A DNA stretch of 64,000 nucleotides from an uncultured Planctomycetia bacterium (GCA_964406665.1 CAYOSQ010000007.1:11364-75363), one strand, 5' to 3'; positions 30,174 to 56,883 are shown, counted from the first letter of the stretch. A program made the numbers and translations. The notes: generated by a model not told the origin, from the sequence alone.

Positions 30174-31235
30174 TTAAATAAAGTTTACATGCTCAACTTC
30201 AGGATGTTTAAGTTCCCATAAAAAACTATTAATCTGATGATGCCTGCAGTTAGGCTGACACATTTTTTTATCATAAGTTTTATTGATATAGTCAATAGTC
30301 TTCCGCCTTTTACTCCACACCTGTGAAAATGATTTTTCAAAAATATTTCCCAGAGATGTTTTTTTGTCATGCTGATAAGAAAAACATGTATAAACTTCTC
30401 CATCTTCACGGATATAAATGATAAACGGAAGACCATAGCACTCTTTATAAAACCTATCTTTGGAAATATTACTTCTACTTCTGACGATAAAAGAAAAACT
30501 CTCATCGGATAAAGATTCTGCTGACCTACTTAAAGATTTAATAAAATCATCAGTTAACCAATCATTATTTAAACCAGATTGATTTTTGCTATGTCCATAA
30601 AAATACTTTACAACAAAATAATCAACACCTGCTTTCTTCATTGTCTTAGCACAATCAACTACAAAATCTTTATTATCATCTAAAATAATATATTGTATGC
30701 CTATAGTAATGTCTGCATTTAGTTCATTTTTTTTAACTCTTAGTTTCTGAATATTATTTAAAACTAAAGAATAGTCTTCCTTTTTTGCTTTATGAACCTT
30801 TGCATAATTTTCGGCGTTTCCTGAATTAAATGAAAACCTTATCCAGGTAAGAGATTTTGCCAAAATACCAAGATCATCTTCTTTAAGCAAAGCTCCGTTA
30901 GTGCTTAAGGCTACGTCGATGCCTTTCTCTTTAGCATATGCAATTGATGGAACAGTCTCTTGGTTTATCAGGGGCTCACCAGTACCGGCAAAAACCATTG
31001 ATTTAATACCTGAATCTTTTAACTCATCAATCAAAGTTTTCATTCTGCCTTGTTTAAACATCCCCTTATGGCCTAAATATTCATAATGGCAAAAAATGCA
31101 GCCGTGATTACAATTTGCAGATGGTGAAATTTCTGCATAAATAGGCTTTATGTTTTTTCCGGACAAAAAATCAACAAGTGCTTGCGGGTGATACAAAAGC
31201 TTATGTCCGTCTAGCTCGAATTTAGCCACTAACAA
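30174..31235 (-). CDS. Radical SAM enzyme (SPASM-like C-terminus)
   Basis: CNHGCIFC (CxxxCxxC), FAGTGEPL, and C-terminal C...C...CQPNC. Confidence 0.8.
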   Translation of the reverse strand: MLVAKFELDGHKLLYHPQALVDFLSGKNIKPIYAEISPSANCNHGCIFCHYEYLGHKGMFKQGRMKTLIDELKDSGIKSMVFAGTGEPLINQETVPSIAYAKEKGIDVALSTNGALLKEDDLGILAKSLTWIRFSFNSGNAENYAKVHKAKKEDYSLVLNNIQKLRVKKNELNADITIGIQYIILDDNKDFVVDCAKTMKKAGVDYFVVKYFYGHSKNQSGLNNDWLTDDFIKSLSRSAESLSDESFSFIVRSRSNISKDRFYKECYGLPFIIYIREDGEVYTCFSYQHDKKTSLGNIFEKSFSQVWSKRRKTIDYINKTYDKKMCQPNCRHHQINSFLWELKHPEVEHVNFI

Positions 31236-32127
31236 CCTCTTTCTCAGACTCAGATAGATCGCGGATATTTTTAATTTCTACTGAAGTATGTCCGAATATC
31301 TGCAAACGGTTAGTCTTGACCTTTATATCACAAGGGTTACAGTGACCAAACAGATAACAAGGCCGATAAATGTCCTCTATTTGAAAATTCTCATCAAGAA
31401 TATGTCCGATGGGTTGCCTTTTAGAATAAAGGTCTGAATGGCATCGGTAAATGTTCCCTGCAGGACCAACGATGAGTTCCGTTGTTTTGCATTCGCAGAA
31501 TTTATTTATCTCTTCGCTTACTGCTAAAGGATATTTATATGTACCGTGCCATTTTTTACCATCATACCCAAGATATTCTTTTGTCCTAAAATCTATACCG
31601 AGCTTTTTACAGCGCCCTTGTATATCTCTTATATGCTCAGCATTTTCTGGTGTCATCACAGAATATAATCCTACATAAAATCCTGCATCTGCCAACCGCA
31701 GAATTTTTTTGATAATTTCTTCGATATCATTTTGTCCTGGATGATAGCTTGCTCTGATTGCGGCATATTTTGCTTCACGGGTAAACTTCGAAGGCGGGAT
31801 ATTCTTGATAAACTCATCAACCTCAAACATCAAATTAGTAAGTAGATCCAGCTTTATGTTATCTCTAATACCATTAACTATCTCATAAAATCCTGGATGA
31901 ATCGTTGGTTCTCCGCCTTGAAAAGTCACCGGTAAATCTTCCCTGTTAATCTGTATTCTATTTATCGCATCAATCCACTCTTTAGCAATTAATGATGCGC
32001 GAGTTATTTCATTTCTCGGTGATTTTAAATCTTTATAATTAATACAATAATCACAAGATAAATTACAGTTAAGCGTTAAAAACATTGCAACATAATTATA
32101 GTGTTTTGGGATAGGAATAGGTTTCAT
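31222..32127 (-). CDS. Radical SAM enzyme
   Basis: CNLSCDYC (CxxxCxxC), FQGGEPT. Confidence 0.8.
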   Translation of the reverse strand: MKPIPIPKHYNYVAMFLTLNCNLSCDYCINYKDLKSPRNEITRASLIAKEWIDAINRIQINREDLPVTFQGGEPTIHPGFYEIVNGIRDNIKLDLLTNLMFEVDEFIKNIPPSKFTREAKYAAIRASYHPGQNDIEEIIKKILRLADAGFYVGLYSVMTPENAEHIRDIQGRCKKLGIDFRTKEYLGYDGKKWHGTYKYPLAVSEEINKFCECKTTELIVGPAGNIYRCHSDLYSKRQPIGHILDENFQIEDIYRPCYLFGHCNPCDIKVKTNRLQIFGHTSVEIKNIRDLSESEKEVVSG

Positions 32128-32129
32128 TT

Positions 32130-33773
32130 TTATAACTGTAAATACTTATTAGCAAATTTTCTAACAGATTCTCTGTGAGATACTGCAATTATAGTTAACT
32201 CAGGATAATTCTTACGGATTTCCACAAAAATTTTCTCTTCAGTGATTTCGTCTATATTTGCTGTTGCTTCATCTAGAATTAACACGCTTGGATTGTATAG
32301 CAAGGCCCGAGCAAGAGAAATGCGTTGCTTCTGCCCCGCTGAAATCCCTTCTCCTGATTCTCCAAGCTTATAGGATAATCCACCATCCAATTCATGTATA
32401 AATGTACAGCAGGAAATATTTAGCACCTTTTCAAGATCATTGCTTGCCAAATCTTTATTTCTTACTCCGTAAAAAAGATTTTCTCTAACAGTGCTGTCGA
32501 TGAGAAATGGATCTGTCCCGGAATATCCAACATTGCTTCTAAAAACTTCCCGGCTCCACAAAGACAAGTCAACATTATTCCATTTAATATCTCCGCTAAG
32601 TTTCTCCACAATTCCTAAGATCGTCATAAGAAATGTTGTCTTTCCTTTTCCGGATTCTCCCTTAACCAGCAAAAAATCACCTTTATTAATTTCGAGATTA
32701 ACATCTTTAAGCAGTTCTGCGTTTCGTCCAATGCTTAGATCTTTAACGCTAAGACTTTCAGGAACGCCTCTATATGATTTAAGGTCTTCTCTAGCTTCGT
32801 TTTCAGTCTTATCTGAAAACATTTCTGAATACTCTAGAAAATTTGTTAAAAATGGATAACAAAACTGAACATGGCCAAAAGACCTAGCGAGTTGAGAAAT
32901 AGCTTGAGGCAATCTAATCAATAAATATATAAATGTAATAAGAGTACCACTTTCGACGTAATTTTCTCTGTGGTTACCCCAAATAGTAAATATCACTATT
33001 AACACCCCGGCAAAAAGTGGCCAAGTATTATTAACTGAAATCCCAACTGCATACTTTATAAACTGCTTGTAAATAGTATTGTTAACAGTATTTAGATTAC
33101 TTAGTTCTCGATTATTTGTTCCAACTATTCTTAAAAAATAAATATTGCGTAAATCCCGTAATATATTTAAAGAAAACATTTTAAGGTTTTTATGGAAACT
33201 TCCTGCATAAGACTGGTAAGCACTTTTTAGAATAATTGTCGGGAAGATCATGACCGCTACTGCAACTAAGGCAACAAGTGTAAGGTTTGCAGAAATAACT
33301 GCCATCCCCACTAGAATAGTAAGCATTAGGAAAAAAGCGCTGATCATTTGGCAAAAAGATGAAACAAAATTGCCTACCTTGGGAGTGAGATTAGTTGTTA
33401 TATGACTAACTTCTGCAACAGAAAGATAACTATTTTCTGCATCAGTCCCTAAAATTGCAAGTCCTAGCATTCTCCTTACTCTGGAGCTAAAAGTTTCATA
33501 TGAAAAATCCGGCAGGAAACTGGCTAAAAAATAAAAACAAAAACGCACTACTGCAACAGAGGCAAGAAAAACTGTTGGCATTGTAGCAAAAGGCAGCAAA
33601 ATACTTGGGATGTTCTTTGATTGAATCAAATCAAAGCTAACTAAAAAGTTTTGCAGAGCAAAACCAAAAATCATCTCGATAAGGCCTAAGAAAAACCCTA
33701 AGAATATCGTGGTAATAAAAAGAAAAAATACCTTTTTGCCAAATAATCTTTTAACTTTTTCAAAAAAAGTCAT
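32130..33773 (-). CDS. ABC exporter, fused permease plus ATPase half-transporter
   Basis: N-terminal ~6 TM helices. Walker A GESGKGKTT, signature ISAGQKQRISLARAL, Walker B ILDEATANID. Confidence 0.85.
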   Translation of the reverse strand: MTFFEKVKRLFGKKVFFLFITTIFLGFFLGLIEMIFGFALQNFLVSFDLIQSKNIPSILLPFATMPTVFLASVAVVRFCFYFLASFLPDFSYETFSSRVRRMLGLAILGTDAENSYLSVAEVSHITTNLTPKVGNFVSSFCQMISAFFLMLTILVGMAVISANLTLVALVAVAVMIFPTIILKSAYQSYAGSFHKNLKMFSLNILRDLRNIYFLRIVGTNNRELSNLNTVNNTIYKQFIKYAVGISVNNTWPLFAGVLIVIFTIWGNHRENYVESGTLITFIYLLIRLPQAISQLARSFGHVQFCYPFLTNFLEYSEMFSDKTENEAREDLKSYRGVPESLSVKDLSIGRNAELLKDVNLEINKGDFLLVKGESGKGKTTFLMTILGIVEKLSGDIKWNNVDLSLWSREVFRSNVGYSGTDPFLIDSTVRENLFYGVRNKDLASNDLEKVLNISCCTFIHELDGGLSYKLGESGEGISAGQKQRISLARALLYNPSVLILDEATANIDEITEEKIFVEIRKNYPELTIIAVSHRESVRKFANKYLQL

Positions 33774-35179: not shown

Positions 35180-36595
35180 TTAGGTAGGTAGTTTTAATGA
35201 TTGTTTCATTCGAATGGATTCGTAAAGATTCTTTCTTAACATAAGTAAAAGCCCAATAAACAATGCTAAGCCAGCTATTACATATTTGTGAACAAGAAGA
35301 GTTCCTCCTCCGGGTAATATTTTTACAAAGACGCTATCAGTAATCGCAGCAATTGTAAAGCCAGATAAGCAAATTAACGCTCCTAAAATGTTCTCTTCTT
35401 TCTTGCGCTGCAGAATCTCCTTTAAAACATAAGCAAAACCAGGTATAAACCAAATGGTATTCATTACCCAGGTTCTAACCCCTGATAAAACTATAACAAC
35501 TAATACAATCTGCCAGAATAGGAACTCTTGGGCATTGGACCATTCAAACCTAGCCTCGAAACTTTTAAATAAATTAAGAAAAACAACAATAATAAATGTA
35601 GCTAAAATTAAAAAGGATAAAAAAGTATCTTTATGGTCAGCAAATTTAGTTCGATTGAACATAATATATAGCCTTCTACCTAATTTAGTCCCTTTTATAG
35701 CTTTTACAAGCGTAGCATTATGAGAAAACCTTAAAGTTGAAGAACTATAATAAACTCCGTCTTTTACGGTCTTTCCAGCCGGTGTATTAGTGTACTTTAA
35801 ATATAAAGGAACAATCATCATAGGCAACATCATATTCATAGTCCCTTCTTCTTGAAACTGAGATATTCTCGGAAGATGCTTTGAAAAATAGTCGAGATTT
35901 AAAGTTCTACAAGAGAAAAATGAAACTATCACAAGTATGCCTATGCCAATAGCATATCCAGAAAGAACCCTCCATTTTCTCCTCAACATTAAAAAAGGAA
36001 CTAAAAATAAACAATAGGGTTTGAAAAATGTTGCCAGCGAGATTAATCCTCCGGAAAGATACTCTCCCTTATTCTGCTTAAGCATAAACATCATAGCTAG
36101 CATTATCAACAATAAGTTTATGGCATCAATTTGTCCTCTTTCAATTTCCGCCAGAAAAGGAAAAAATAAACAAATAAAGATACCGCAACTCAAAAGTACT
36201 TCAGCGGACAATTCTAACTTTATTATGTTACAAGCGATAATCAACGAAGAAATAACAGATAGAATAAGTATCGATATCCAAACCCACTTAGCAACTTTGT
36301 AAGGAAGCAAGGCTAATGGTCTTGTTAAAAAAGCAACAAGTGGAGTATAGGTAAATCTGCTGTGTTTATAAATTGCTACTCCATCCCAAATAGGTGGATC
36401 TCTGCGGATATGGTTTTTGTAAGGAGATAATCCGCTATTCATTGACTCAGCAGCCGTATAAGAAGCTGAGAAATCCATCTGCAGGCTTTCATTGCCAAAC
36501 TCAACAACATAGCTTATAAAGCGCACAGAAACACAAATGAAAATAATAGATAAAATAATTCTTATAGCTAGTTTACGAGATATTTTTCTTTGCAT
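35180..36595 (-). CDS. GT87/DUF2029-family integral-membrane (GT-C) glycosyltransferase
   Basis: MDFSASYTAA...SPYKNH...FTYTPLVAFLTRPLALLPYKVAKWVW matches the DUF2029 N-terminal signature (DF..Y...G..PY....FtYPP..a.l..PlalLp). Polytopic. Confidence 0.65.
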   Translation of the reverse strand: MQRKISRKLAIRIILSIIFICVSVRFISYVVEFGNESLQMDFSASYTAAESMNSGLSPYKNHIRRDPPIWDGVAIYKHSRFTYTPLVAFLTRPLALLPYKVAKWVWISILILSVISSLIIACNIIKLELSAEVLLSCGIFICLFFPFLAEIERGQIDAINLLLIMLAMMFMLKQNKGEYLSGGLISLATFFKPYCLFLVPFLMLRRKWRVLSGYAIGIGILVIVSFFSCRTLNLDYFSKHLPRISQFQEEGTMNMMLPMMIVPLYLKYTNTPAGKTVKDGVYYSSSTLRFSHNATLVKAIKGTKLGRRLYIMFNRTKFADHKDTFLSFLILATFIIVVFLNLFKSFEARFEWSNAQEFLFWQIVLVVIVLSGVRTWVMNTIWFIPGFAYVLKEILQRKKEENILGALICLSGFTIAAITDSVFVKILPGGGTLLVHKYVIAGLALFIGLLLMLRKNLYESIRMKQSLKLPT

Positions 36596-37512: not shown

Positions 37513-38922
37513 CTATTTTCTCAAAAAAACTTCGAGGGCACGATTGGCGAAAGTCTTGAAAGACTCAGGGATAAACTGCCGTATTGCTGTCAAATAAACA
37601 AAACAGCTATCAAAAAAAAGCACAAAAAGCGCTTTAGGGAAGCTAGTTTTTCTTAATACTTTAAATCTAAAAGTAATCTTTTCCCAATAAATTATTGCAG
37701 AAGAAATCTGTGGATACTTAAGCAACGAAGAAAACTGATGAGAATACGGCAAAATTTTACTATCCAGCCATTGATTATCTATGCATAGTTTATACAAGGC
37801 TGTGCCAGGATAGGGCTGGAAAATAGAAACCTGTAAAAAATTTGGCCCTACCTCCCTGTTTAAATCAATTGTCTCCTTTATCTCAGCTGTAGTCTCATAT
37901 GGCAGACCGACAATATTATAAGAATATGTCGGTAATCCTACATCGTGGCAGGTTTTAAATGCATTTTTTATCTGCTTATTAGAAACGTTCCTATTTAAAA
38001 CCTCTTTTCTGATTTTCTCAGAGCCACTCTCTATTCCTATGCAAACATTGGTACATCCGCTTCCCTTCAAATATTCACAAAGCTTAGGCGTAACCATTTC
38101 TGTTCTTGTGCTACATGAGTAAGTAAGATTAAAATCCTTGGGCAATTGCTGGCTGAACTCTTTAACCCAATTAATCGGAATAGCAAAAAGATCATCATGA
38201 AAAAACAACCTCTTGATTCCATACTTTTCTTTAAGCTCTTTAATTTCCTTAATTACATTTTTAACTGAACGCTTACGTATTAATTTACCTTTATCCTCAT
38301 ACAACTTGTGAAGATAAGAATTAATACAATAAGAACAATCATATGGGCAACCTCGCGAAGACATAATGTCCGCACCGCCGTTCCTCGATTTTATGTAACG
38401 CTCAATCTGAAAAATCTCTCTATCAGGAAATGGAATTGAATCAAGATCTGCAATAGGTGCATCTGCATCGTTGCGAATTATCTTCCCATTATCTTTTAAC
38501 CACAAGCCCTTTATATCAACAATCTGTTTTTTAGACTCAAGCCTATTACACAGCTCCAGCAAAGGCTTCTCCCCTTCTCCGATACAAACAATATCAACTG
38601 ACTTCTTAGCGATTACGCTTTCTGGCGCAACAGTTGGATGAACTCCACCAAAGATTATTTTTACCTCATTACCGAATTTATGCTTGATTTTCTCAGCAAT
38701 TTTTATTGAACGGTTAAATTCCCCCGTCCGCACTGAAAAAGCAACTATTTGAGGCTGAAACTTATCGATCTCCCTAATGGCAGTCTGAGAATTTCCTCCC
38801 CAGGTATAATCAACCAAGGCAGTTTTATGACCAGAATTCTTAATATATGCAGAAAGATATGCGATACCTAAAGAAATATTTTCCTGCCGCATAAAATTAG
38901 GATAAACAAATAATACCTTCAT
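37513..38922 (-). CDS. B12-binding radical SAM enzyme (class B rSAM)
   Basis: MKVLFVYPNF...LGIAYLSAYIKNSGHKTALVD (cobalamin-binding Rossmann), then SSRGCPYDCSYC (CxxxCxxC). Confidence 0.8.
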   Translation of the reverse strand: MKVLFVYPNFMRQENISLGIAYLSAYIKNSGHKTALVDYTWGGNSQTAIREIDKFQPQIVAFSVRTGEFNRSIKIAEKIKHKFGNEVKIIFGGVHPTVAPESVIAKKSVDIVCIGEGEKPLLELCNRLESKKQIVDIKGLWLKDNGKIIRNDADAPIADLDSIPFPDREIFQIERYIKSRNGGADIMSSRGCPYDCSYCINSYLHKLYEDKGKLIRKRSVKNVIKEIKELKEKYGIKRLFFHDDLFAIPINWVKEFSQQLPKDFNLTYSCSTRTEMVTPKLCEYLKGSGCTNVCIGIESGSEKIRKEVLNRNVSNKQIKNAFKTCHDVGLPTYSYNIVGLPYETTAEIKETIDLNREVGPNFLQVSIFQPYPGTALYKLCIDNQWLDSKILPYSHQFSSLLKYPQISSAIIYWEKITFRFKVLRKTSFPKALFVLFFDSCFVYLTAIRQFIPESFKTFANRALEVFLRK

Positions 38923-39054
38923 AATTTCAAAAGTACCTTTCAATGAAATAGTTACAGGTATATTGTATAGCTCTGTAAGAAAAATATCAAGCTAAGCTAC
39001 GATTATCTATTTTTTTGTTGCCAGCTTAACATTTATAGTATATGATTTGATAAT

Positions 39055-41142
39055 ATGATTATATCGCTTGCAGTATTTTTAGTTATTATCATCGGCCTTG
39101 GTTCTATAGCAAGAATTGCTGGCTGGTCCAAAGAAGATGCCCTTGAGAAATTTTTTATTACTTCTGGAATTGGATTACTTGCGATTCCTGTTGTAGGAGT
39201 CATATTCAACCTTCTAGGCATACCGATTGATTTCAAAAATTTTATCTATCTTGCTTTAACAATCCTTATCTTCTCTGTAATAATAGAGTTAATCCGCAAA
39301 TCTTCCAGATCCAGCATAAAAAATCTTATAAAAGAATTAATCTCCCTTCCCAATATTGCGCTATTAGTTATTTTTGGTATAGCCCTTTATATGTATTTAA
39401 AAGGAAGTTTTTCATATGAATGGTTTGAAGATTATGATCCCTGGCTTTATGCAGCCTCTACGAAATTCATTGCGCTTGAGAAAACTTTTAATTCTTCATT
39501 CTGGTCTCGAGTTTCCCAGCCGTATCCTCAGGGATTCCAAATCATCTTGGCAATTTTGCATCAGACCAATTCCAGCTTAAGCTGGACAATGAAATTTTTT
39601 AACGCAATAATTGTCTCCCTAAGCTACCCTATGTTTTATTATCTTTCTAAAAAACTAGTTCCGGGAAAATGGCCTTCCATAATCGGCACTGCTGCCCTTT
39701 TGTCTATGCCTGCTTGGTTAACTCATTTTATTTTCCCTTTCAGCCTTAGCATGACATCAATCCCGATTTTCTTTTATGCGCTTATTAAAAGTGAAGAAAA
39801 CAATAAATGGTTTACAATTGCACTCATTTCATTTATATCCATATGGTTCATTCACTTTTATTCAAGCTTTGTTATAACAATTATGTTATTTCTTTACTGG
39901 TTAAATAAATCGTTCTGTGAAAATAAATTTAATAAATCTATAATCTGGTTAACAATTTCAGGGATGGTTGTAAGTCTCTCAATTTTCTGGCTGCCTTCTC
40001 TTTATAAATTTAAGGATGAAATTCTCATAGATCAAAAAGTTCCTGCAGGATTACACGTATTTATCAATCCCATTAAATCGCTTATTGAAACCGGATACTG
40101 GATTAATGTTTTATCATTTATTTTATTTTTTATAATTATCATCTCAACACAAAAATTCTGGAGACGCGCCCTGAGCAGAATTACTTCTAAGTTTAATTTT
40201 AAATATACTAAAGCAACAATCTTTACAATTGCAATATCTTTAACAATGGTTGTGTTGTTGTGGCCGAAAAAGTTCATGCGCGTGCTTGGTTCAGGATCCA
40301 TGCCATATACCCTTGAACATTTTCTTTCTCTGAATACCGAACGCAACCTTATCCAAAATCCGTTTGGAATAGGAGCTGTTTCAATGGCTCTAGCTGCAGT
40401 TGGCTTTATTTACTGTATTGTCATAATAGCCAAGCTATTCTCGAAAGAAAAACAATTCACTGCACTAATATTTGTTTGGAGTATCTTTACTTTTTTAGGC
40501 GTAAGCAGTGCGAGATTTTCCTTAAACCTTATGCCTTTTAGAATGTGGTCATTCTTCGCGTTTTCTGTAGCTCTGCTTGTAGCTTTATGTTATAATCTAA
40601 TAACCAACAAAATAAAACAGCCGATACTGAAAATTTGCCTAACTGTTCTTTTGATAATTGGGTTTTCCTTCACATGGTTTCCTATAAAATACAAGCTAAA
40701 CAGCAATAGATGGAAAGAAGGTTGGCTAACCACCATTCAAGCTATTAATCTATATGTTTGGGTAGGTGAAAACTTACCCAAAAATTCCAAGGTGTACTCA
40801 CTGGGAACAAACCAATGTGTCCCCATAGTCTTTGATATGATTTCTTACCCTTGGGATTACGAAGTAAAAAATTATATAAATAAAGATATTGAGAATTCGC
40901 CATCGGATAATTATGAATTTCTTAAAGCCAAAGGCTATGAATACGTTATCGTTGATGTTTCTAGCTCCTTGTATCATTTTAACTACACTCATTACGAGCT
41001 TCCTGAAGGTGTAAAAAACGTACTCTTTATCAAAAATCTAAAATTGCTAAACTTCAAAAAAGCAATTATGCGACAGATGGATAATAAATTTGAACTCATC
41101 AAAGAATTCGGCGATACCGGAGCAATTTTTAAAATACTATAA
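39055..41142 (+). CDS. Polytopic GT-C membrane protein; degenerate STT3/PglB-family paralogue
   Basis: EL1-like EDYDPWLYAASTKF...W...YPQG resembles STT3 efDPYfnYraTrF...W...YPlG. The C-terminal NLPKNSKVYS-LGTNQ-CVPI sits at the ntPedAKVmS-WWDYG-yqI position. NYEFLKAKGYEYVIVD resembles AYkIMRsLDVDYVLV. The DxD and WWDYG acidic residues are missing. Confidence 0.45.
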   Translation: MIISLAVFLVIIIGLGSIARIAGWSKEDALEKFFITSGIGLLAIPVVGVIFNLLGIPIDFKNFIYLALTILIFSVIIELIRKSSRSSIKNLIKELISLPNIALLVIFGIALYMYLKGSFSYEWFEDYDPWLYAASTKFIALEKTFNSSFWSRVSQPYPQGFQIILAILHQTNSSLSWTMKFFNAIIVSLSYPMFYYLSKKLVPGKWPSIIGTAALLSMPAWLTHFIFPFSLSMTSIPIFFYALIKSEENNKWFTIALISFISIWFIHFYSSFVITIMLFLYWLNKSFCENKFNKSIIWLTISGMVVSLSIFWLPSLYKFKDEILIDQKVPAGLHVFINPIKSLIETGYWINVLSFILFFIIIISTQKFWRRALSRITSKFNFKYTKATIFTIAISLTMVVLLWPKKFMRVLGSGSMPYTLEHFLSLNTERNLIQNPFGIGAVSMALAAVGFIYCIVIIAKLFSKEKQFTALIFVWSIFTFLGVSSARFSLNLMPFRMWSFFAFSVALLVALCYNLITNKIKQPILKICLTVLLIIGFSFTWFPIKYKLNSNRWKEGWLTTIQAINLYVWVGENLPKNSKVYSLGTNQCVPIVFDMISYPWDYEVKNYINKDIENSPSDNYEFLKAKGYEYVIVDVSSSLYHFNYTHYELPEGVKNVLFIKNLKLLNFKKAIMRQMDNKFELIKEFGDTGAIFKIL

Positions 41143-41144
41143 AA

Positions 41145-42008
41145 ATGCCCAAAGTTAGCATTATTCTCCCAGCATTCAACGAAGAAAAATCAATAGGACC
41201 GCTTATCCGTCAAATCCAAACAATTATTAAAGAGGATTATGAAATTTTAGTTGTTGATGACGGCTCTACTGATAAAACTTTCTCGCAGGCACAAAAAGCA
41301 GGTGCTCGAGTACTTAAACACCCTTACCAACTAGGTAATGGCGCTGCAGTAAAAACCGGCATGAGAAATGCCGTTGGGGACATTTTCCTTCTTTTGGATG
41401 CAGATGGCCAGCACGATCCCAAATACATACCAGAAATTCTAAGCTTGATGGAAGAATACGACATGGTTGTAACTGCTCGCACAAAATGGACTGATGCTCC
41501 CTTGCATCGTAAATTTGCAAATGTAATTTATAATGCCCTTGCTTCTTATTTATCAAAGACTAAGATTCTTGATCTAACGTCTGGATTCAGGGCTATAAAA
41601 GCAAAAATTGCTAGAAATTTTATTTATTTACTGCCGAATACATTTTCTTATCCCTCCACTCTTACTATGGCTATATGCAAAACCGGCCATAGCTTGACTT
41701 ATGTTCCGGCAAAGCTAAAACCGAGAATCGGAAAAAGTAAAATAAACCTAATTTCCGACGGCGTTAGATTTATATTAATAATAATGAAGATTGCAACTCT
41801 CTTTAATCCCATGAGAATATTCTTCCCAACTAGCCTTGCTATTTCTGCCATGGGAATAGGCCATGCTGCCTATAAAATATTCGTACGCCACGAGCAATAT
41901 ACCGGCCTTTCTTTATTGTTTATTACTACTGGTATTATGGTATTTCTCTTAGGGCTTATTGCAGAACAAATTACTCAGCTTCGCCTTGAAAGAAGCGAAG
42001 GTAACTAA
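41145..42008 (+). CDS. GtrB/Dpm1-like GT2 polyprenyl-phosphate glycosyltransferase with C-terminal TM helices
   Basis: VSIILPAFNEEKSIGPLIRQIQ...ILVVDDGSTDKT...LLLDADGQHDP..., then two C-terminal hydrophobic helices. Confidence 0.8.
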   Translation: MPKVSIILPAFNEEKSIGPLIRQIQTIIKEDYEILVVDDGSTDKTFSQAQKAGARVLKHPYQLGNGAAVKTGMRNAVGDIFLLLDADGQHDPKYIPEILSLMEEYDMVVTARTKWTDAPLHRKFANVIYNALASYLSKTKILDLTSGFRAIKAKIARNFIYLLPNTFSYPSTLTMAICKTGHSLTYVPAKLKPRIGKSKINLISDGVRFILIIMKIATLFNPMRIFFPTSLAISAMGIGHAAYKIFVRHEQYTGLSLLFITTGIMVFLLGLIAEQITQLRLERSEGN

Positions 42009-42030: not shown

Positions 42031-43128
42031 ATGATCCACGTTTTTATTGGAACAAAAGCTCAATTCATAAAAGTAGCGCCAATTCTAAAAGAACTAGATA
42101 ACCGCACTATTTCCTACAGATTAATCGACAGTTGCCAGCATAGTGATATCACAAAAGATCTAAGAAAAATATTCTCGATAAAAAATCCGGATGCATTTTT
42201 AGATGAAAAATTTACTAACATAAATTCTCTTCCTAAAGCTTTTCTCTGGGTTTCGAAAATAATCTTTAGAATTATTTTTTTAAAAAATAAGCTCAGAAAC
42301 AGTCTCTTTGGGGAAAATCCTTACGGTGTATGTTTAATTCACGGAGACACTCTCTCTACTCTTTTAGGTTTAATCATTGCTAAATCCTGCGGATTAAAGG
42401 TTGCTCACCTTGAAGCGGGGTTAAGAAGCTTTGACCTTTTTAACCCTTTTCCTGAAGAAATCATCAGGATCATTTGCATGAAGTTTGCTGACTACCTTTT
42501 TACCCCCTCACAATGGGCAGAAGATAACTTAATCAAAATGAATATAAGAGGAGAAATATTTAATGTAGGAGAAAACACAATTATTGATTCTATGGGGCTT
42601 ATGCTACCGCAAAAAAAGGATTTTAAATTTTCTGATATGAAGCCATATGCGATTATGAGTATTCATCGATTCGAAAACATTTATTCTTCTAAAAGACTTA
42701 AGCTTATCATCAATCTTGCACTTCAAATTTCTAATAAGTTAAATTTATTTTTTATTATGCATCAACCCACACAAAAAAAATTAGAGCGCTCAGGAGCTAT
42801 AAATCGCATAAAAAAAGAAAAGATCTATAATTATCCACTGACAAGCTATGATAATTTTATACTCATCCTAAAAAATGCTGAATTTATTATTACGGATGGC
42901 GGAAGCATCCAAGAAGAAAGCTATGCCCTTGATATCCCCTGTTTGTTAATGAGAAAAAAGACAGAGCGACAAGATGGTATTAGCGAAAATGTATGTCTTT
43001 CTAAATTCGATTCAAAAATAATTGATAATTTTTTAAAAGATTATAAAAGTTTTAGGAGTTTAAAATCTCAAAACGATGAAAGTCCTTCGAAAAAAATCGT
43101 AGATATAATTAGCGGCTTTCCTTCTTAA
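42031..43128 (+). CDS. UDP-N-acetylglucosamine 2-epimerase (WecB/Epimerase_2 family)
   Basis: MIHVFIGTKAQFIKVAPILKEL, HLEAGLRSFD, PFPEEIIRIICMKFADYLFTPSQ. The start was taken at the MIHVF Met; the track ORF starts at 41959. Confidence 0.75.
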   Translation: MIHVFIGTKAQFIKVAPILKELDNRTISYRLIDSCQHSDITKDLRKIFSIKNPDAFLDEKFTNINSLPKAFLWVSKIIFRIIFLKNKLRNSLFGENPYGVCLIHGDTLSTLLGLIIAKSCGLKVAHLEAGLRSFDLFNPFPEEIIRIICMKFADYLFTPSQWAEDNLIKMNIRGEIFNVGENTIIDSMGLMLPQKKDFKFSDMKPYAIMSIHRFENIYSSKRLKLIINLALQISNKLNLFFIMHQPTQKKLERSGAINRIKKEKIYNYPLTSYDNFILILKNAEFIITDGGSIQEESYALDIPCLLMRKKTERQDGISENVCLSKFDSKIIDNFLKDYKSFRSLKSQNDESPSKKIVDIISGFPS

Positions 43129-44116
43129 AACTAAAAGACTTAAAATTATCTAACCAGCCTTTTAAAATTCCTAGATAAAACATAATCAGATATTTCCATA
43201 ACAAAGGCGTAACAATCAGAATGTCTTTCTTTTTTTCTATTATGGAAAAGACTGCAAAAAAATAAATTAATAAAAAAGCTAAAAATGCCGAGGCAAGATA
43301 CATAGGTTGCCCAAAAGCTGCATAGGCGATAAAAAATAATATAGTAACAGGCAAAAGCGCAGCTATGCGGTAAAGCATATTACGCTTAATATAAAAATCA
43401 AAAAATGTTACACCCCTTTTTAAAACCCAGGATGAGAGCTCTTTCGAATCTTCGCGTTGAGAATAATGAATTTTTATATTTCTATGCTTAAGTATTTTAA
43501 TATTCTCGCGAAAAACGATATTTTCTATCAAGGCTATATCATCATTGGTGTTTTTAGTAAAAACTTCGGGAATTGATCTGAAAAATAAATCTTTTTCTAT
43601 AAAAAGGCATGTTGTTCCTTTGGGGATTCTACGAAAATTATTTTTAGTAATAAACACTTGTCCTTCCTTTTCATTAAGAGGAAAATACGGATAATAGTAT
43701 CTTCTTCTTATTAAAAAGAATAGCCGCTCAGTAGGAGTCATTGTTTTCTCTAATTCCAGCTGCCTACCTGCAATAAGCGGAGAATATCCTAAGCTCCAAT
43801 ACTGCTTTAAAATATCCTCGCTAGCTTCAACTTTTGCATCTATAAATAAAATAGTATTATAACTTGCTTGCTCAGCTCCAGTTTTTCGAGCAATAATTTT
43901 TCCGCAGTTTTTTGTCAAACGGATTATTCTTACAGGATAATTGCTTACAACTTCCGCAGAATTATCTGAAGAGCCATCATCTACAACAATTATCTCATAA
44001 TCATTGCTTAAACTAGCACCGCTAAGCTTAAGCAAGGCATCTAGACATTTTCCAATGAATTTTGATTCATTGTAAATAGGTACTACTATCGATATTCTTT
44101 CATGAGTTGGATTCAT
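43109..44116 (-). CDS. GT2 glycosyltransferase with C-terminal membrane helices
   Basis: ISIVVPIYNESKFIGKCLDALLK...IIVVDDGSSDNS...FIDAKVE, then hydrophobic C-terminal helices. Confidence 0.75.
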   Translation of the reverse strand: MNPTHERISIVVPIYNESKFIGKCLDALLKLSGASLSNDYEIIVVDDGSSDNSAEVVSNYPVRIIRLTKNCGKIIARKTGAEQASYNTILFIDAKVEASEDILKQYWSLGYSPLIAGRQLELEKTMTPTERLFFLIRRRYYYPYFPLNEKEGQVFITKNNFRRIPKGTTCLFIEKDLFFRSIPEVFTKNTNDDIALIENIVFRENIKILKHRNIKIHYSQREDSKELSSWVLKRGVTFFDFYIKRNMLYRIAALLPVTILFFIAYAAFGQPMYLASAFLAFLLIYFFAVFSIIEKKKDILIVTPLLWKYLIMFYLGILKGWLDNFKSFSFKKESR

Positions 44117-44134: not shown

Positions 44135-45967
44135 TTATTTTTTTAAAAGCTTTCTATTTATTCTCAAAACATACAGAGCTTTCATCTTTTCATCTATGTA
44201 TCCTGCATACTTTTTGTTTCTATCCAGCTCTTTTAATTGATTTAAATACTTACCTACCTTATCAAAATCTCCCTCCTGCCAATAGAATTCAGTAAGTTGA
44301 AAAACTAATCGAATAGTTGCTTCTCCGTGTGGCAATATCTCAAGCAAATGCTCGAATACGGATATTACCGCTTCCGTGGTATTTTCTACAGGATTATAAT
44401 ACTCAATGGCTGTAAGACCATTAACGTAAATATGTTTAAAATTATCTTCATTAAAATTTTCTTTATTATTTATAATTTCTTTATAAATTCCTTTTGAAGC
44501 AAATGCAAAGAATAATTTTTGATTAGGAATATTAAAACCGGCAAGTTTTCTTGCAGCTAGTATCAAGTTTCGATTACTGGTAGTTAACAGAGGAGAATAT
44601 TTCAATTCTTCATCATTGAAATAAAAGTACTCACCGTGCCAATCCGGAGTGAACCCACCATCAATTAAGGTTTCCATAATCAAAGCATCGCCTCTTTTTA
44701 CGCGCTCTTTTAGAGCAGCGTAGAAATCTCTCCAGGACCTATCCGCTGGGGCCAACTTTCTAGATTCAGCTCTAGCATTAAAAATATTATTCCCAACTAA
44801 TAGCAGCAGGCCTAATGTAATTATAGTCATAAAAGAATTTTTCATCCTTTTACTCTTTACTTTTCTCTCAATAATTTCTAAAAAGTCTTTTAAGCCAATT
44901 ACTACAACAAAAAACATAATAGGAATATAGGTTAGCACGTACCGTGGCTTAAAATCAGCTCCTTTAGTAGCAAGCCCAAACATAAACCAGCAAATAACAG
45001 GATAAATCAACATCACAAGCAATAAAGTCGTCTTTATCTGGGCAGTTTTTTTATCAAAAGAAGCCTCGCGCCTCTGTAATATTGAAGTTAGTAGAATTAC
45101 CGGAACTGCCAGAAATAATAAATATTTATAGTTTCCTATCAAGTCATAAAAAAGAAAATAATTTGAAGCTGAATATTCATTGATCAATCCAGCAGCCCTC
45201 TCCATCCATTGATCAAAGGGATTAAACCAAGCAGTGGATGAATTCTTTATGCGAGAAAAGATAGGATAAAATAATCCCAATGCTGCGAAATAGGGAATAA
45301 TGTCGCAACAGACTCTTTCGTGAATTTTCTGTTTTACAAAAAATAGCCCCAAAAACGCAGAAGTCACTCCAAAAACAAAAAGCATAACTATGGGCTGAAA
45401 ACCAATTGAACAAAGAAGGATAAATTGAGAAATTGTAAAGACTACACCATTCTTTACATTTTTTTCTTTGACAAAAGTATAATAAGAAAAAATAAACAAG
45501 ATAACACAAAAAACTGATACAGAATAAGGTCTTCCCTCAGCAGAATAGCGAATTAGCCAGGGATTAAAACAAATCAGCAAAAAACCAAAGAAAGCTATTA
45601 TTTTTCCGTAGTATTTCAATATGCAGAGAAAAAACAAAAAACAAGTAAAAGCACCAAAGAAAACTGCATGGATGCGAACCCCCATCTCATTTAAACCAAT
45701 AAAAGAGATGCCTATTGCTTCAAGATAATAATCTAAAGGAGGTTGCTGTTGAGATGCCGCCAAATCAATAATATTTGAAGTTATTATTTCTGCGGAAGGA
45801 TTCTGATTTTTAAATGTATCATCAAGCCAAATGCTTCTTGAACAGTACATCGCCTGTCGATCTTCATCCATCCAAATACTTCTAAAGGAAATCTCCCCCA
45901 GCCTTACAATAAAGGCTATAAAAAAAAGTACAACTATTAAAAGAATTAGAGAAAATTTATTATTCAT
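44135..45967 (-). CDS. PMT_2/ArnT-like GT-C glycosyltransferase fused to a C-terminal TPR-containing soluble domain (TMTC-like architecture)
   Basis: WMDEDRQAMY...QQPPLDYYL...GLNEMGVRIHAVFFGAFT is the PMT_2 (GT39/GT83) N-terminal signature. About 11 TM helices, then ~250 aa of helical repeats. Confidence 0.6.
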   Translation of the reverse strand: MNNKFSLILLIVVLFFIAFIVRLGEISFRSIWMDEDRQAMYCSRSIWLDDTFKNQNPSAEIITSNIIDLAASQQQPPLDYYLEAIGISFIGLNEMGVRIHAVFFGAFTCFLFFLCILKYYGKIIAFFGFLLICFNPWLIRYSAEGRPYSVSVFCVILFIFSYYTFVKEKNVKNGVVFTISQFILLCSIGFQPIVMLFVFGVTSAFLGLFFVKQKIHERVCCDIIPYFAALGLFYPIFSRIKNSSTAWFNPFDQWMERAAGLINEYSASNYFLFYDLIGNYKYLLFLAVPVILLTSILQRREASFDKKTAQIKTTLLLVMLIYPVICWFMFGLATKGADFKPRYVLTYIPIMFFVVVIGLKDFLEIIERKVKSKRMKNSFMTIITLGLLLLVGNNIFNARAESRKLAPADRSWRDFYAALKERVKRGDALIMETLIDGGFTPDWHGEYFYFNDEELKYSPLLTTSNRNLILAARKLAGFNIPNQKLFFAFASKGIYKEIINNKENFNEDNFKHIYVNGLTAIEYYNPVENTTEAVISVFEHLLEILPHGEATIRLVFQLTEFYWQEGDFDKVGKYLNQLKELDRNKKYAGYIDEKMKALYVLRINRKLLKK

Positions 45968-53111: not shown

Positions 53112-53123
53112 TTTTAAAATCGC

Positions 53124-54410: not shown

Positions 54411-54414
54411 AATT

Positions 54415-56883
54415 ATGTCTTGTTTTAAAAAATTGAACAATAAATTCCTGACTTATCTGCTGATTTCAATAACTGTAATCACCATTGGGCTACATTTTAG
54501 ACTTTATCCTATCACCATCAATTTAAACAGACAAAATCTTTCTGCTTCGAGGATTGCTCTCTTCATAAATATAAAGAAAACTCTAGCCAGAAAAATTAAT
54601 GCTGCTTTCCCAAACCTTCCACAAGAAAACAAAAATGTTTTGATAAATAAAGGATTTGAAAGTTTTACAAAAAAGGATCCTGAAAAATTAAAAGCCTTGA
54701 TAGATGAATTCAAATCAAAAAATGAGAATTCATTATATAGATACTTTCTTCTTGGCTCTGATTCCTATTATTTCTATTATCTAACAAAAGAGATAGTTTC
54801 CCACGGAGCCATATCCAAACAAATAAAAAACGGAAGTTACTTTGATGTTCTTATGAGTGCACCTGGCGGCCATTGGAGGAAAATTGAAGCTCACCCCTAT
54901 TTCGGTTTTTCCATCTACAAACTATTCACTGTTTTTTCTAAAGATTTTTCTCTTCTCTGGGCTTTATCTATTGTTCCTTTAATACTTTTTACTGTCTCGG
55001 CCTTAATTTTTATTTTAATTTGTTTAAATCTAAAGATTGATAAAATTAACATTCTTTTCAGCTCTTTATTCTTTTGTCTTTCTCCAATCTTCATTCAACG
55101 CAGTTCTTTTGGTTGGTACGATAGTGACCCATACAATATTCTATTCTTGTGCCTTGCGCTTTTTATAATTCTTAAGTTAGTAAAAAATGAAACTCATATC
55201 TTCTGGTCCCTTTCCTTGGGTTTTGTTACAGGACTATATTCATTATTTTGGCAGGGCTGGGTTTTGCTACCTGCTCTGTCTTTTTCATCTATGTTTTTTG
55301 TTTTAATCATAAAGGTTATCGAAAAACAAAAATTTACAATATTATTAAAAAAAATCGGGCTATTTTCTGCAAGTTTTCTTATTTTTGCAATAATTATACT
55401 TTCTCCTAAAGGCTTCGCAAATTCTGCTTCCGATATTTCAAGCATCATCTTTGGTTTTTTTCAGCTAAATTCAAATTTATGGCCTGATATCTTCTTAACC
55501 GTCGGAGAACTAAAGTCGCCCAATGCTTTAAAGATTATTCACACATTAGGTGGCTATGTGTTTATCGGAGTTGCTGTTTTGGGTTTTATCTTATTATGCT
55601 TTGGAAGAATCAAAAATTCAGATAAAGGACAGAGTATTGTAATAGTAGTTTCGACAATTTTATGTTTATTATTAACCAGAAACGCTGAACGCTTTGTCCT
55701 CTTTTTATTAGTTCCTATTTCAATTTGTTTTGCGCTAGGAATTAATGAGATCTGGAGGGCTGTAAATACGCAGTACTCAAAAATATCCAAGTTGAGAAAA
55801 AATCATTGTAACTGTGCAGCGACTTTTACATTATCCCTACTTTTGATTTCTCCCTTTATTTACGGCCATGCAACATCTCTTTCTCAAGTCCCTCTTTTTA
55901 ACATCGTATGGAAAGATTCACTTGAAAAAATAAAGAACAAGACTGATAAATCAGCAGTAGTCAATTCCTGGTGGCCTCCTGGACACTTCATTAAAGCTAT
56001 TGCTGAAAGAAGAGTAACTTTTGACGGTGCAACAATCAACACTCCTCAGGCATACTGGATGGCTAATTTCTTTTTATCAAATAGTGAAGAAGAAGCTTTA
56101 GGCATACTAAGAATGTTAAATACCAGCAGCAATGAAGCAACTGAATTTATGATTGATAAAAGAATTCCTCTTCAGAAAGCAATACCTTTATTAAAAGAAA
56201 TAATTGTAAAAAGTAAGCAATCTGCCAAGGATACCCTGAAAAACTATTTAGATGATAAAGATATAGAGCGTATTTTAATATTAACTCATTCAAGCCCCCC
56301 TCCTTCCTATTGCCTTATTTATAATGAAATGGTGGAGAACGCTCTTGGTCTTCGGTTCGTCAAAAATTGGAATTTCAATAAAGCATTTAATATTAAGAAG
56401 GAGCGGTATGCCGCTTTAAAAAAGGGAAAGTTCTTCTGGAGGGGAACCAAAGACTATATAGGAGAGGCTTGGTCTGTTTCTGGTGGTCCAACATACATCG
56501 GAGAAGAATCTTACGAAATCTCCACTAATAATAATTCAATTCGATTTGCTAACGGAGTAATCCTAGATAAAGAATTAATGATTGCTAAAATCGATAGGCT
56601 TGAAGACAAAATATCCGGGGTTCCCCATTCCTTGCTTTATGTAAAAAATAATAAACTAATAGAGAAAAAACTTGAAAATCCGACTATTAAGCTTTCTGTC
56701 TTAATTATTCCTCATTCTAATAACAGTCAAAGTTCAATTGTTGCTCCCGCTGAAGTTCTAAAATCTATTCTTTTTAGGCTTTATTATCTTGATGGGCTGG
56801 GATTAAAAAGGTTTGAAAAGGTTATTCAAGAAGAAAACCCTTTGCTTAAAACAAGGATTTTTGTCTTTAAAATTATCTGGTAA
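54415..56883 (+). CDS. STT3/PglB/AglB-family oligosaccharyltransferase homologue with WWPPG in place of WWDYG
   Basis: EL1 GSDSYYFYYLTKEIVSHGAISKQIKNGSYFDVLMSAPGG resembles STT3 fDPYFNYRtTRFlaeeGfykfhNWFDDrAWYPlG. RSSFGWYDSDPYNILF resembles RSvAGsYDNEgIAIF. The C-terminal soluble domain NKTDKSAVVNSWWPPGHFIKAIAERRVTFDGATIN...NFFLSNSEEEALGILRML resembles NTpEdAkVmSWWDYGYQI..mANRTtLVDNNTWNN...SSnEeaAYkIMR.L. About 13 TM helices. Confidence 0.6.
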   Translation: MSCFKKLNNKFLTYLLISITVITIGLHFRLYPITINLNRQNLSASRIALFINIKKTLARKINAAFPNLPQENKNVLINKGFESFTKKDPEKLKALIDEFKSKNENSLYRYFLLGSDSYYFYYLTKEIVSHGAISKQIKNGSYFDVLMSAPGGHWRKIEAHPYFGFSIYKLFTVFSKDFSLLWALSIVPLILFTVSALIFILICLNLKIDKINILFSSLFFCLSPIFIQRSSFGWYDSDPYNILFLCLALFIILKLVKNETHIFWSLSLGFVTGLYSLFWQGWVLLPALSFSSMFFVLIIKVIEKQKFTILLKKIGLFSASFLIFAIIILSPKGFANSASDISSIIFGFFQLNSNLWPDIFLTVGELKSPNALKIIHTLGGYVFIGVAVLGFILLCFGRIKNSDKGQSIVIVVSTILCLLLTRNAERFVLFLLVPISICFALGINEIWRAVNTQYSKISKLRKNHCNCAATFTLSLLLISPFIYGHATSLSQVPLFNIVWKDSLEKIKNKTDKSAVVNSWWPPGHFIKAIAERRVTFDGATINTPQAYWMANFFLSNSEEEALGILRMLNTSSNEATEFMIDKRIPLQKAIPLLKEIIVKSKQSAKDTLKNYLDDKDIERILILTHSSPPPSYCLIYNEMVENALGLRFVKNWNFNKAFNIKKERYAALKKGKFFWRGTKDYIGEAWSVSGGPTYIGEESYEISTNNNSIRFANGVILDKELMIAKIDRLEDKISGVPHSLLYVKNNKLIEKKLENPTIKLSVLIIPHSNNSQSSIVAPAEVLKSILFRLYYLDGLGLKRFEKVIQEENPLLKTRIFVFKIIW

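What the first reader, a model, noticed from the sequence alone, without database searches (positions are those of the whole stretch)
39055..41142. Second, catalytically degenerate STT3-like paralogue paired with a GtrB-like synthase
The 695-aa membrane protein has an STT3-like EL1 block (EDYDPWLYAASTKF...FWS...YPQG against efDPYFNYRATRF...WFDD..WYPlG). Its C-terminal region is NLPKNSKVYS-LGTNQ-CVPI ... NYEFLKAKGYEYVIVD, where STT3 has ntPedAKVmS-WWDYG-YQI ... AYkIMRsLDVDYVLV. So the scaffold is retained, but the WWDYG motif and the DxD-type acidic pair are absent. A pseudo-OST paralogue next to a polyprenyl-P-sugar synthase (41145-42008) is unusual. It may be a non-catalytic partner or a transferase with a different chemistry.
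Basis: partly seen in the sequence, partly recalled or inferred. Interest (0 to 1): 0.7.

Follow-up and report, generated by a model that had tools for sequence, protein, structure and literature searches.

The report
STT3-shaped glycosyltransferase without the OST motifs
This gene encodes a membrane sugar-transferase that is predicted to keep the overall shape of the N-glycosylation enzyme STT3/AglB but has swapped its signature motifs for its own strictly conserved set. It sits next to the enzyme that makes its likely lipid-linked sugar donor, so it is most likely an active, uncharacterised enzyme family and not a dead copy.

Summary

WWDYG is absent family-wide (1-2 of 165 sequences), and so is the STT3 EL2 DxD pair. 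"Catalytically degenerate" is not supported. The family has 757 representatives at 50% clustering. Most of the 80 genome loci examined are labelled DPANN archaea; the target sits in an Omnitrophota clade. The family keeps D128 (100%), K180 (100%), R496 (98%), H224 (96%), K545 (96%) and E125 (94%), which hydropathy and charge-based topology places on the outer membrane face.

A GtrB/DPMS/ArnC-type polyprenyl-phosphate sugar synthase starts 2 nt after the stop codon. A full-length one lies within 10 kb in 44 of 84 related loci, and within 1.5 kb in 23.

Best reading: an active GT-C that transfers one sugar from a polyprenyl-monophosphate donor, a prokaryotic parallel to eukaryotic DPY19. Acceptor and sugar are unknown. 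It is a new variant of a known kind, of moderate interest.

The parts
39055..41142 (+). 695-aa GT-C glycosyltransferase of an unannotated family. It has an STT3/AglB-like predicted architecture and lacks the WWDYG and EL2 DxD motifs.
39055..39294 (+). Family-specific N-terminal extension of three TM helices (aa 1-80), ahead of the canonical GT-C TM1 (aa 95-113). Conserved residues G16, E31, G40, P57.
   Evidence: Secondary structure of the model, hydropathy and positive-inside analysis, conservation. Function unknown.
39409..39444 (+). EL1 acidic block FSYEWFEDYDPW (aa 119-130; family consensus F-x-Y-P-Y-L-E-D-D-D-P-W). D128 is the putative catalytic Asp. E125 and D126 are accessory acids.
   Evidence: D128 in 165/165, E125 in 156/165, D126 in 140/165. 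hhalign places D128 on the invariant EL1 Asp (D116) of the window's STT3 family.
39709..39732 (+). P-A-W-L-T-H-F-I motif (aa 219-226) with H224, at the inferred outer end of a TM helix. It occupies the place where STT3 has R229 followed by its DxD loop, which is deleted here.
   Evidence: P219 163/165, H224 160/165, F225 159/165, and no conserved acid at 225-234. hhalign puts the STT3 D236-x-D238 in a gap.
40264..40374 (+). EL5-like external loop (aa 404-440): Y418, H422 (Asp in 85% of the family), F423, N431, N-P-x-G-x-G (435-440).
   Evidence: Conservation counts. Outer-face placement inferred from topology.
40534..40548 (+). P-F-R-x-W motif (aa 494-498). R496 and W498 are candidate ligands of the donor phosphate.
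   Evidence: R496 98%, W498 98%. The role is inferred by analogy with Arg471 and Trp262 of DPY19 (PMC10154233).
40675..41142 (+). C-terminal extracytoplasmic alpha/beta domain (aa 541-695) with the OST/DPY19 core fold. The loop after the first strand reads LGTNQ where STT3 has WWDYG. The family's own conserved residues are K545, W553, D594, W600, Y630.
41145..42008 (+). 287-aa GT2 polyprenyl-phosphate sugar synthase (GtrB/DPM1/ArnC/AglJ type) with C-terminal TM helices. Its start is 2 nt after the stop codon of the GT-C gene.
   Evidence: PF00535 1e-29. NCBIfam: AglJ 1e-36, PpgS 1e-23, Dol-P-hexose transferase, PgfS, ArnC. PDB: DPMS 5mlz 3e-17, ArnC about 1e-15, GtrB 5ekp full length. A full-length homolog lies within 10 kb in 44 of 84 unique family loci, and within 1.5 kb in 23.
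42031..43128 (+). WecB-type non-hydrolysing UDP-GlcNAc 2-epimerase and third gene of the operon. The probable ATG is 22 nt after the GT2 stop; the ORF list starts it at an upstream TTG, 41959.
   Evidence: PF02350 2e-52, TIGR00236 2e-50. In the same position in L001. Found within 10 kb in 10 of 86 loci. Whether it feeds the synthase is inferred.
54415..56883 (+). Context: the genome's real STT3-family OST (822 aa), 13 kb downstream. It keeps the EL1 Asp, DxD, TVGE and Arg, but has WWPPG instead of WWDYG.
   Evidence: PF02516 4e-20. Family alignment A2. Synteny with the target gene in L001/L087 and L002/L088 and in L012. L008 holds a partial copy about 4 kb downstream, cut by the contig end.

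Best explanation
The gene encodes an active, inverting GT-C glycosyltransferase. It belongs to an old, unannotated family that shares the STT3/AglB/PglB architecture: the TM core and the C-terminal core domain. Its active site has been re-tooled.

Proposed mechanism:
1. The co-transcribed GT2 loads one sugar from a nucleotide sugar onto polyprenyl phosphate at the cytoplasmic face. The sugar may be a HexNAc, and ManNAc is possible given the adjacent WecB epimerase.
2. The lipid-linked sugar is flipped by an unidentified flippase.
3. The GT-C then transfers that single sugar to an extracytoplasmic acceptor, either a protein side chain or a surface glycan. D128 (with E125 and D126) in external loop 1 acts as catalytic base or metal ligand. 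R496, W498, K180, H224 and K545 bind the phosphate leaving group.

Shown here: the predicted fold, the motif losses, the family-wide conservation, the synthase identity and the gene linkage. Inferred: activity, the monophosphate donor, residue roles, and the sugar. Unknown: the acceptor.

For: Active-site conservation in 165 diverse members: D128 100%, K180 100%, R496 98%, W498 98%, H224 96%, K545 96%, E125 94%. The topology analysis places these on the outer face.

Donor: the adjacent GT2 is closest to DPMS, ArnC, GtrB, AglJ and PpgS. Full-length homologs lie within 10 kb in 44 of 84 unique loci, and 23 of those lie within 1.5 kb. Under uniform placement the expectation is 15%, so p is about 9e-9.

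Precedent: DPY19 has an STT3-like module and luminal domain, uses Dol-P-Man, needs no metal, and relies on an EL1 carboxylate plus an Arg/Trp phosphate clamp (PMC10154233).
Against: - There is no biochemical evidence.
- I could not inspect model coordinates, so the spatial clustering of the conserved residues is inferred from topology only.
- No GtrA-type flippase was found next to the operon.
- About half of the related loci show no full-length synthase within 10 kb, although many of those are short contigs.
- The family keeps an EL1 acidic cluster and a mostly acidic EL5 position (D422 in 85%, His in this protein). That would also fit a metal-dependent enzyme using a diphosphate donor.
Confidence: 0.7

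Rival explanations
1. It is a genuine oligosaccharyltransferase. It would transfer a glycan from a polyprenyl-diphosphate carrier to protein, but with a non-canonical acceptor signature, which would explain the missing WWDYG.
Against: The EL2 DxD metal ligands are deleted. No Pfam STT3 or STT3-PglB_core model matches any of 28 members. The conserved partner is a monophosphate-sugar synthase. Genomes carrying it also have a bona fide STT3/AglB.
Confidence: 0.12
2. It is a catalytically dead pseudo-OST that serves as a structural or regulatory partner of the real STT3.
For: It lacks WWDYG and the EL2 DxD. It is syntenic with an STT3 in four Omnitrophota contigs that include the window, and a fifth holds a partial copy.
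Against: Charged and polar residues at active-site-type positions are almost invariant across 165 divergent members. An STT3 lies within 10 kb in only 6 of 86 loci, whereas 66 of 86 have a GT2 that hits the synthase and 46 have a full-length synthase-type one. The family is large (757 representatives) and mostly archaeal, which does not fit a lineage-specific decayed duplicate.
Confidence: 0.05
3. It is a generic ArnT/PMT/GtrII-like glycan- or lipid-modifying GT-C, and the STT3 resemblance is only superfamily-level.
Against: The C-terminal domain specifically matches the OST/DPY19 core domain. The profile score against the genome's GT39-like family (42, 38% probability) is lower than against its STT3 family (67, 94%). 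The target itself has no PMT_2 hit. This rival differs from the best explanation mainly in ancestry and acceptor, not in chemistry.
Confidence: 0.13

Closest known systems
STT3 / AglB / PglB oligosaccharyltransferase catalytic subunits (CAZy GT66; Pfam PF02516 and PF21436), especially the short archaeal AglB-S type
   Different: No Pfam or NCBIfam STT3 match. No WWDYG (LGTNQ in its place; 1-2 of 165 members have WWD). The EL2 DxD loop is deleted. The EL5 TIXE/SVSE motif is not recognisable. There are three extra N-terminal TM helices. The partner gene makes a monophosphate-linked sugar, not a diphosphate-linked oligosaccharide.
DPY19 tryptophan C-mannosyltransferase (eukaryotic GT-C; PDB 7zlg, 7zli; PMC10154233)
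   Different: No detectable sequence relationship. DPY19 is eukaryotic, and this family is found in DPANN archaea and Omnitrophota. The EL1 motif here is an E-D-x-D cluster instead of a single Glu. The acceptor here is unknown, and there is nothing to suggest C-glycosylation.
Three-component extracytoplasmic glycosylation systems: GtrA/GtrB/Gtr-type, ArnC/ArnT, CsbB/YfhO, PgfS/PgfM, PpgS/Rv3779, AglD/AglS (PMC11127046, PMC12041528)
   Same: A GT2 polyprenyl-phosphate sugar synthase gene sits beside a GT-C gene, and the GT-C has an acidic motif in EL1. The linkage is conserved across the family.
   Different: The GT-C here is of STT3/AglB architecture, not the ArnT/PMT/YfhO type. No GtrA-type flippase gene is adjacent. 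Most members are archaeal.

Membership tests
STT3/AglB/PglB oligosaccharyltransferase (GT66) | GT-C fold with an STT3-type TM arrangement | tested here: met
STT3/AglB/PglB oligosaccharyltransferase (GT66) | C-terminal extracytoplasmic core (CC) domain | tested here: met
STT3/AglB/PglB oligosaccharyltransferase (GT66) | Match to the family's sequence models (Pfam PF02516 or PF21436; TIGR04154) | tested here: not met
   No hit at E<=0.1 for the target, and none at E<=1 for the 28 family members scanned.
STT3/AglB/PglB oligosaccharyltransferase (GT66) | Catalytic Asp in external loop 1 | tested here: met
   D128 is invariant (165/165) and aligns with the invariant D116 of the genome's STT3 family.
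STT3/AglB/PglB oligosaccharyltransferase (GT66) | Second acidic motif DxD/DxE in EL2 (metal ligands) | tested here: not met
   STT3 D236-x-D238 falls in an alignment gap. No conserved acid at aa 225-234.
STT3/AglB/PglB oligosaccharyltransferase (GT66) | EL5 TIXE/SVSE glutamate | tested here: inconclusive
   The motif is not aligned by hhalign. The family has D422 in 85% and E in 5% of members, but this protein has His.
STT3/AglB/PglB oligosaccharyltransferase (GT66) | WWDYG motif in the C-terminal domain | tested here: not met
   The equivalent loop reads LGTNQ. WWD occurs in 1-2 of 165 family members.
STT3/AglB/PglB oligosaccharyltransferase (GT66) | Transfers an oligosaccharide from a polyprenyl-diphosphate carrier to Asn in N-x-S/T | not testable with these tools
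   Needs biochemistry. The gene context points to a monophosphate donor instead.
Three-component polyprenyl-P-sugar dependent GT-C systems (Gtr/Arn/YfhO type) | GT-C enzyme with an acidic motif in the first external loop | tested here: met
   E125-D126-x-D128 in EL1. GT-C fold.
Three-component polyprenyl-P-sugar dependent GT-C systems (Gtr/Arn/YfhO type) | Genetically linked GT2 polyprenyl-phosphate glycosyltransferase with C-terminal TM helices | tested here: met
   Adjacent gene 41145-42008. Matches DPMS, ArnC, GtrB, AglJ and PpgS. Linkage is conserved.
Three-component polyprenyl-P-sugar dependent GT-C systems (Gtr/Arn/YfhO type) | Dedicated small flippase (GtrA family or equivalent) | tested here: not met
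   No GtrA-like Pfam hit among the small ORFs near the operon. One archaeal relative (L004) has a GtrA_DPMS_TM fusion beside the pair. A distant or unrelated flippase is not excluded.
DPY19 C-mannosyltransferases (GT98) | Sequence membership (Pfam Dpy19) and a WxxW acceptor | tested here: not met
   No Pfam hit. The similarity is structural only. The acceptor is not testable.
PMT_2 / GT39 / GT83 (ArnT, PMT-like) | Match to the PMT_2 or PMT models | tested here: inconclusive
   The target has no hit. One of the 28 aligned members hits at 3.6e-5, and P0073, one of ten further representatives scanned, hits at 1.5e-7, above the cutoff. hhalign against the genome's GT39-like family is only 38% probable.

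The most novel reading that the evidence does not exclude
The family is an ancient offshoot of archaeal AglB that was converted from an oligosaccharyltransferase into a single-sugar protein glycosyltransferase. It would use polyprenyl-P-HexNAc, for example polyprenyl-P-ManNAc, which to my knowledge has not been described as a donor. That would make it a prokaryotic counterpart of DPY19, installing a protein modification not yet described in DPANN archaea. It would also have been exchanged across domains with Omnitrophota bacteria, together with a WWPPG-type STT3.
Probability: 0.25. Interest if true: 0.75.

Novelty: new variant of a known kind. Interest (0 to 1): 0.55.

Why it matters
If the reading is right, the OST scaffold has been repurposed in prokaryotes for monophosphate-donor, single-sugar transfer, as DPY19 did in eukaryotes. 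That bears on how N-glycosylation machinery diversified. It would also put a name on about 750 sequence clusters that have no annotation. They come largely from DPANN archaea and Omnitrophota, ultra-small and probably host-dependent organisms whose surface glycans are likely central to cell-cell attachment.

The family also gives a clean set of testable residues: D128, E125, K180, H224, R496 and K545. The three-gene operon (GT-C, synthase, epimerase) could be reconstituted heterologously.

Tried and rejected
- Pairwise BLASTP of the target against the window's STT3 and against the 723-aa ORF gave only chance TM matches.
- phmmer and profile hmmsearch against PDB sequences gave nothing except Sec61-gamma noise at E about 0.2.
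- The Pfam T4_MRH hit (E 0.008, below cutoff) was dismissed as chance.
- The protein comparison profile mode crashed, so I ran hhalign myself.
- Full-length hhalign was misleading. The C-terminal part of the target profile scored about 140 against anything, including reversed profiles. I split the profiles into TM and C-terminal parts and used reversed-profile controls.
- Model coordinates are not exposed, so I could not measure active-site geometry.
- I looked for a GtrA-type flippase near the operon and found none.
- Literature searches for WWDYG-less STT3-like families, AglB in DPANN, Omnitrophota STT3 and 'WWPPG' found no description of this family.

Full report
**1. The observation**

ORF 39055-41142 (+) is real and encodes 695 aa.

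It heads a tight three-gene operon:
- The GT2 gene 41145-42008 starts 2 nt after the stop codon.
- A WecB-type UDP-GlcNAc 2-epimerase follows, with a probable ATG at 42031.
- The operon lies between a divergent B12-binding radical SAM gene (37513-38943) and a convergent GT2 (43109-44116).

The "first" STT3 implied by the title is 54415-56883 (822 aa, PF02516 4e-20). The window as a whole (about 34% GC) is a dense glycan-biosynthesis island with at least five GT-C-type genes.

**2. Sequence methods do not see an STT3**

- The target has no Pfam or NCBIfam family.
- BLASTP against the window's STT3 gives only chance TM matches.
- Neither phmmer nor a family profile finds any PDB sequence.
- Of the 28 aligned family members, none hits an STT3 model and one hits PMT_2 weakly. 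A further representative, P0073, also hits PMT_2, above the cutoff.

**3. The family**

The word-indexed search found 30 relatives, the named ones from Candidatus Omnitrophota. An exhaustive profile search found 757 cluster representatives at E<=1e-3, 427 of them at <=1e-30.

In one genome per species, 199 genomes encode a relative. Of the best 80 loci, 74 are labelled archaeal: Woesearchaeota, Nanoarchaeota/Nanoarchaeia, one Altiarchaeota, plus third-party assemblies labelled 'uncultured Methanosarcinales'. Six are labelled bacterial: Omnitrophota, or 'uncultured Planctomycetia' in third-party assemblies. The bacterial ones include the target's closest relatives (40-61% identity).

This is a sizeable family without Pfam or NCBIfam annotation. 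Among the best 80 genome loci it is mostly DPANN-archaeal, and it includes an Omnitrophota clade. That distribution implies inter-domain transfer.

**4. Structure**

The AF2 model built from the family alignment is confident (pLDDT 86.4, pTM 0.89).

| Search | Ranking |
|---|---|
| Foldseek vs PDB | human STT3A 2.8e-10; C. elegans DPY19 2.4e-8; STT3B 3.2e-8; AglB 5e-7; AftA 1.6e-4; ArnT 1.2e-3 |

The claim that "the scaffold is retained", including the OST core domain, is therefore supported by predicted structure.

**5. Profile-profile comparison**

Full-length hhalign was contaminated by an artefact: the C-terminal part of the target profile scored about 140 against anything, including reversed profiles. 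I split the domains and used reversed-profile controls.

| Comparison | Score | Probability |
|---|---|---|
| Target TM vs the genome's STT3 TM (337 co-linear columns) | 67 | 94% |
| Reversed-profile controls | about 20 | <1% |
| Target C-domain vs STT3 C-domain | 12 | equals controls |
| Target TM vs the window's GT39/PMT_2-like family | 42 | 38% |
| STT3 TM vs that same GT39/PMT_2-like family | 76 | 96% |

All three families sit at superfamily distance. The target leans toward STT3 but is not a recent paralogue.

In the TM alignment:
- D128 sits on the invariant EL1 Asp (D116) of the STT3 family.
- P219 and H224 sit on P224 and R229.
- The STT3 D236-x-D238 falls in a gap.
- The TVGE motif falls in an unaligned insert.

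**6. Not degenerate**

In an alignment of 165 diverse members:

| Conservation | Residues |
|---|---|
| 100% | D128, K180 |
| 99% | G117, W553, G440 |
| 98% | R496, W498, P219, G438 |
| 96% | H224, Q170, K545, Y157, Y241 |
| 95% | Y418 |
| 94% | E125 |

- EL1 reads E125-D126-x-D128, with D126 in 85% of members.
- Position 422 in the EL5-like loop is Asp in 85% and Glu in 5% of members. It is His in this protein and its clade.
- D594 (83%) and W600 (91%) mark the C-domain.
- WWD occurs in 1-2 of 165 C-domains, and no acid is conserved after H224.

Hydropathy, the positive-inside rule and the model's helices give an N-out topology with three extra N-terminal TMs. EL1, H224, the 404-440 loop, R496, K545 and the C-domain all lie on the outer face. 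This is the pattern of a functional active site that has been re-tooled. It is not the pattern of a pseudoenzyme.

**7. Donor**

The adjacent GT2 is closest to P. furiosus DPMS (3e-17), ArnC (about 1e-15) and GtrB (full length, 1e-13) among solved structures. Among NCBIfam models it is closest to AglJ, PpgS, Dol-P-hexose transferase, PgfS and ArnC. All of these are polyprenyl-phosphate sugar synthases.

In 86 related loci (84 unique), 66 have a GT2 that hits this synthase within 10 kb. In 44 unique loci that GT2 is a full-length synthase-type protein, including the C-terminal TM region. In 23 of those it lies within 1.5 kb, often divergently transcribed. Uniform placement predicts 15%, so p is about 9e-9. 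Many loci without one are short contigs.

An STT3 or AglB lies within 10 kb in only 6 of 86 loci.

The WecB epimerase is adjacent here and in the closest relative (L001), and within 10 kb in 10 of 86 loci. It hints at a ManNAc or HexNAc sugar, but that remains an inference.

No GtrA-type flippase was found next to the operon.

**8.

In Omnitrophota the two genes are syntenic. The STT3 lies 13-15 kb downstream in the window, in GCA_042567325.1 (L001/L087) and in Ga0164318_10000035 (L002/L088). It lies 9 kb downstream in L012. L008 holds a partial copy about 4 kb downstream, cut by the contig end.

In archaea, only L018 and L019 (canonical AglB with WWDFG about 1.1 kb away) and L041 show linkage within 10 kb.

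**9. Mechanism and comparison**

The best precedent is DPY19 (PMC10154233):
- Its variable module and luminal domain resemble STT3.
- It uses Dol-P-Man and is metal-independent.
- It lacks the OST metal ligands.
- It uses an EL1 carboxylate (Glu71) and an Arg471/Trp262 phosphate clamp.

The family here shows the same logic: an EL1 carboxylate cluster, an invariant R496-x-W498, additional Lys and His residues, and a linked monophosphate-sugar synthase.

I therefore propose an active inverting GT-C that transfers one sugar from polyprenyl-P-sugar to an extracytoplasmic acceptor (confidence 0.7). The acceptor, protein or glycan, cannot be decided here. Retention of the OST/DPY19-type core domain makes a peptide acceptor plausible (about 0.25-0.3).

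Rivals:
- A true OST with an unusual sequon (0.12).
- A generic ArnT/PMT-like glycan modifier whose STT3 resemblance is only superfamily-level (0.13). This rival overlaps with the best explanation in chemistry.
- A dead pseudo-OST partner (0.05).

**10. Novelty**

No Pfam or NCBIfam model and no paper in the searchable library describe the family.

The kind of system is known: a GT-C plus a polyprenyl-P-sugar synthase. An STT3-architecture enzyme stripped of OST motifs, widespread in DPANN archaea and shared with Omnitrophota, is a new variant of it.

Interest is moderate (0.55). The result would interest specialists in glycosylation evolution, but everything here is computational, and the acceptor is unknown.

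Noticed in passing
window 54415-56883 (+): The genome's real STT3 keeps every catalytic motif (EL1 D116, D236-x-D238, TVGE E365, R426) but has WWPPG instead of WWDYG. In its family alignment, 26 of 28 members have WW[P/C/S]PG. Only the two most distant (about 992 aa) have WWDFG. The Asp of WWD reads the +2 Ser/Thr of the sequon, so this Omnitrophota OST clade may have a different acceptor rule. No paper in the library contains 'WWPPG'.
   Followed up: partly
window 50940-56883 (+); L087, L088: There is a conserved gene triad: an unknown 711-723-aa protein with no Pfam hit (50940-53111), then an S41 peptidase with PDZ (53124-54410), then the STT3. TPR and PilM/PilN genes follow on the opposite strand in both relatives; the window's own downstream ORFs were not scanned. 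The triad is in the same order in three Omnitrophota contigs.
   Followed up: partly
window 37513-38943 (-): A B12-binding radical SAM gene (best NCBIfam HpnJ, 6e-55, below cutoff) is the divergent neighbour of the target. A homolog lies within 10 kb of the family gene in 25 of 86 loci, including many DPANN archaea, and within 3 kb in 11. This may be a functional link, for example sugar or lipid methylation.
   Followed up: partly
family loci L007-L086: Taxonomic split: 74 of the best 80 loci are labelled archaeal (mainly DPANN) and 6 bacterial (Omnitrophota and relatives). The bacterial proteins are about 690-700 aa and carry an insertion of roughly 80 aa (aa 320-405 of the target, extra helices, lower pLDDT) that most archaeal members of about 610 aa lack. 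This suggests inter-domain transfer.
   Followed up: partly
window 40846-40857 (aa 598-601 of the target): Most archaeal family members carry C-x-W-C here (89 of 165), a possible disulfide or metal site in the C-domain. The target clade has Y-P-W-D instead.
   Followed up: no
window 3161-5644 (-): An 827-aa fusion of a Wzx/MOP-type flippase domain (Polysacc_synt, aa 14-338) with a GT2 domain (aa 534-735).
   Followed up: no
window 35180-36595 (-), 44135-45967 (-), 49324-50814 (+): Three further GT-C-type genes lie within 15 kb of the target: GT87, a GT39/PMT_2-like gene, and an LA_3751/PMT_2-like gene. Several radical SAM/SPASM genes (30174-32127) and an ABC exporter (32130-33773) are also nearby. 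This is an unusually dense extracytoplasmic glycosylation island.
   Followed up: no
L018 3205-6291, L019 11008-14103: Two loci labelled Methanosarcinales encode a canonical 1030-aa AglB (WWDFG). It scores 1e-188 against the Omnitrophota STT3 profile and lies about 1.1 kb from the family gene, with a GT2 in between. The Omnitrophota STT3 therefore also has close archaeal relatives.
   Followed up: no
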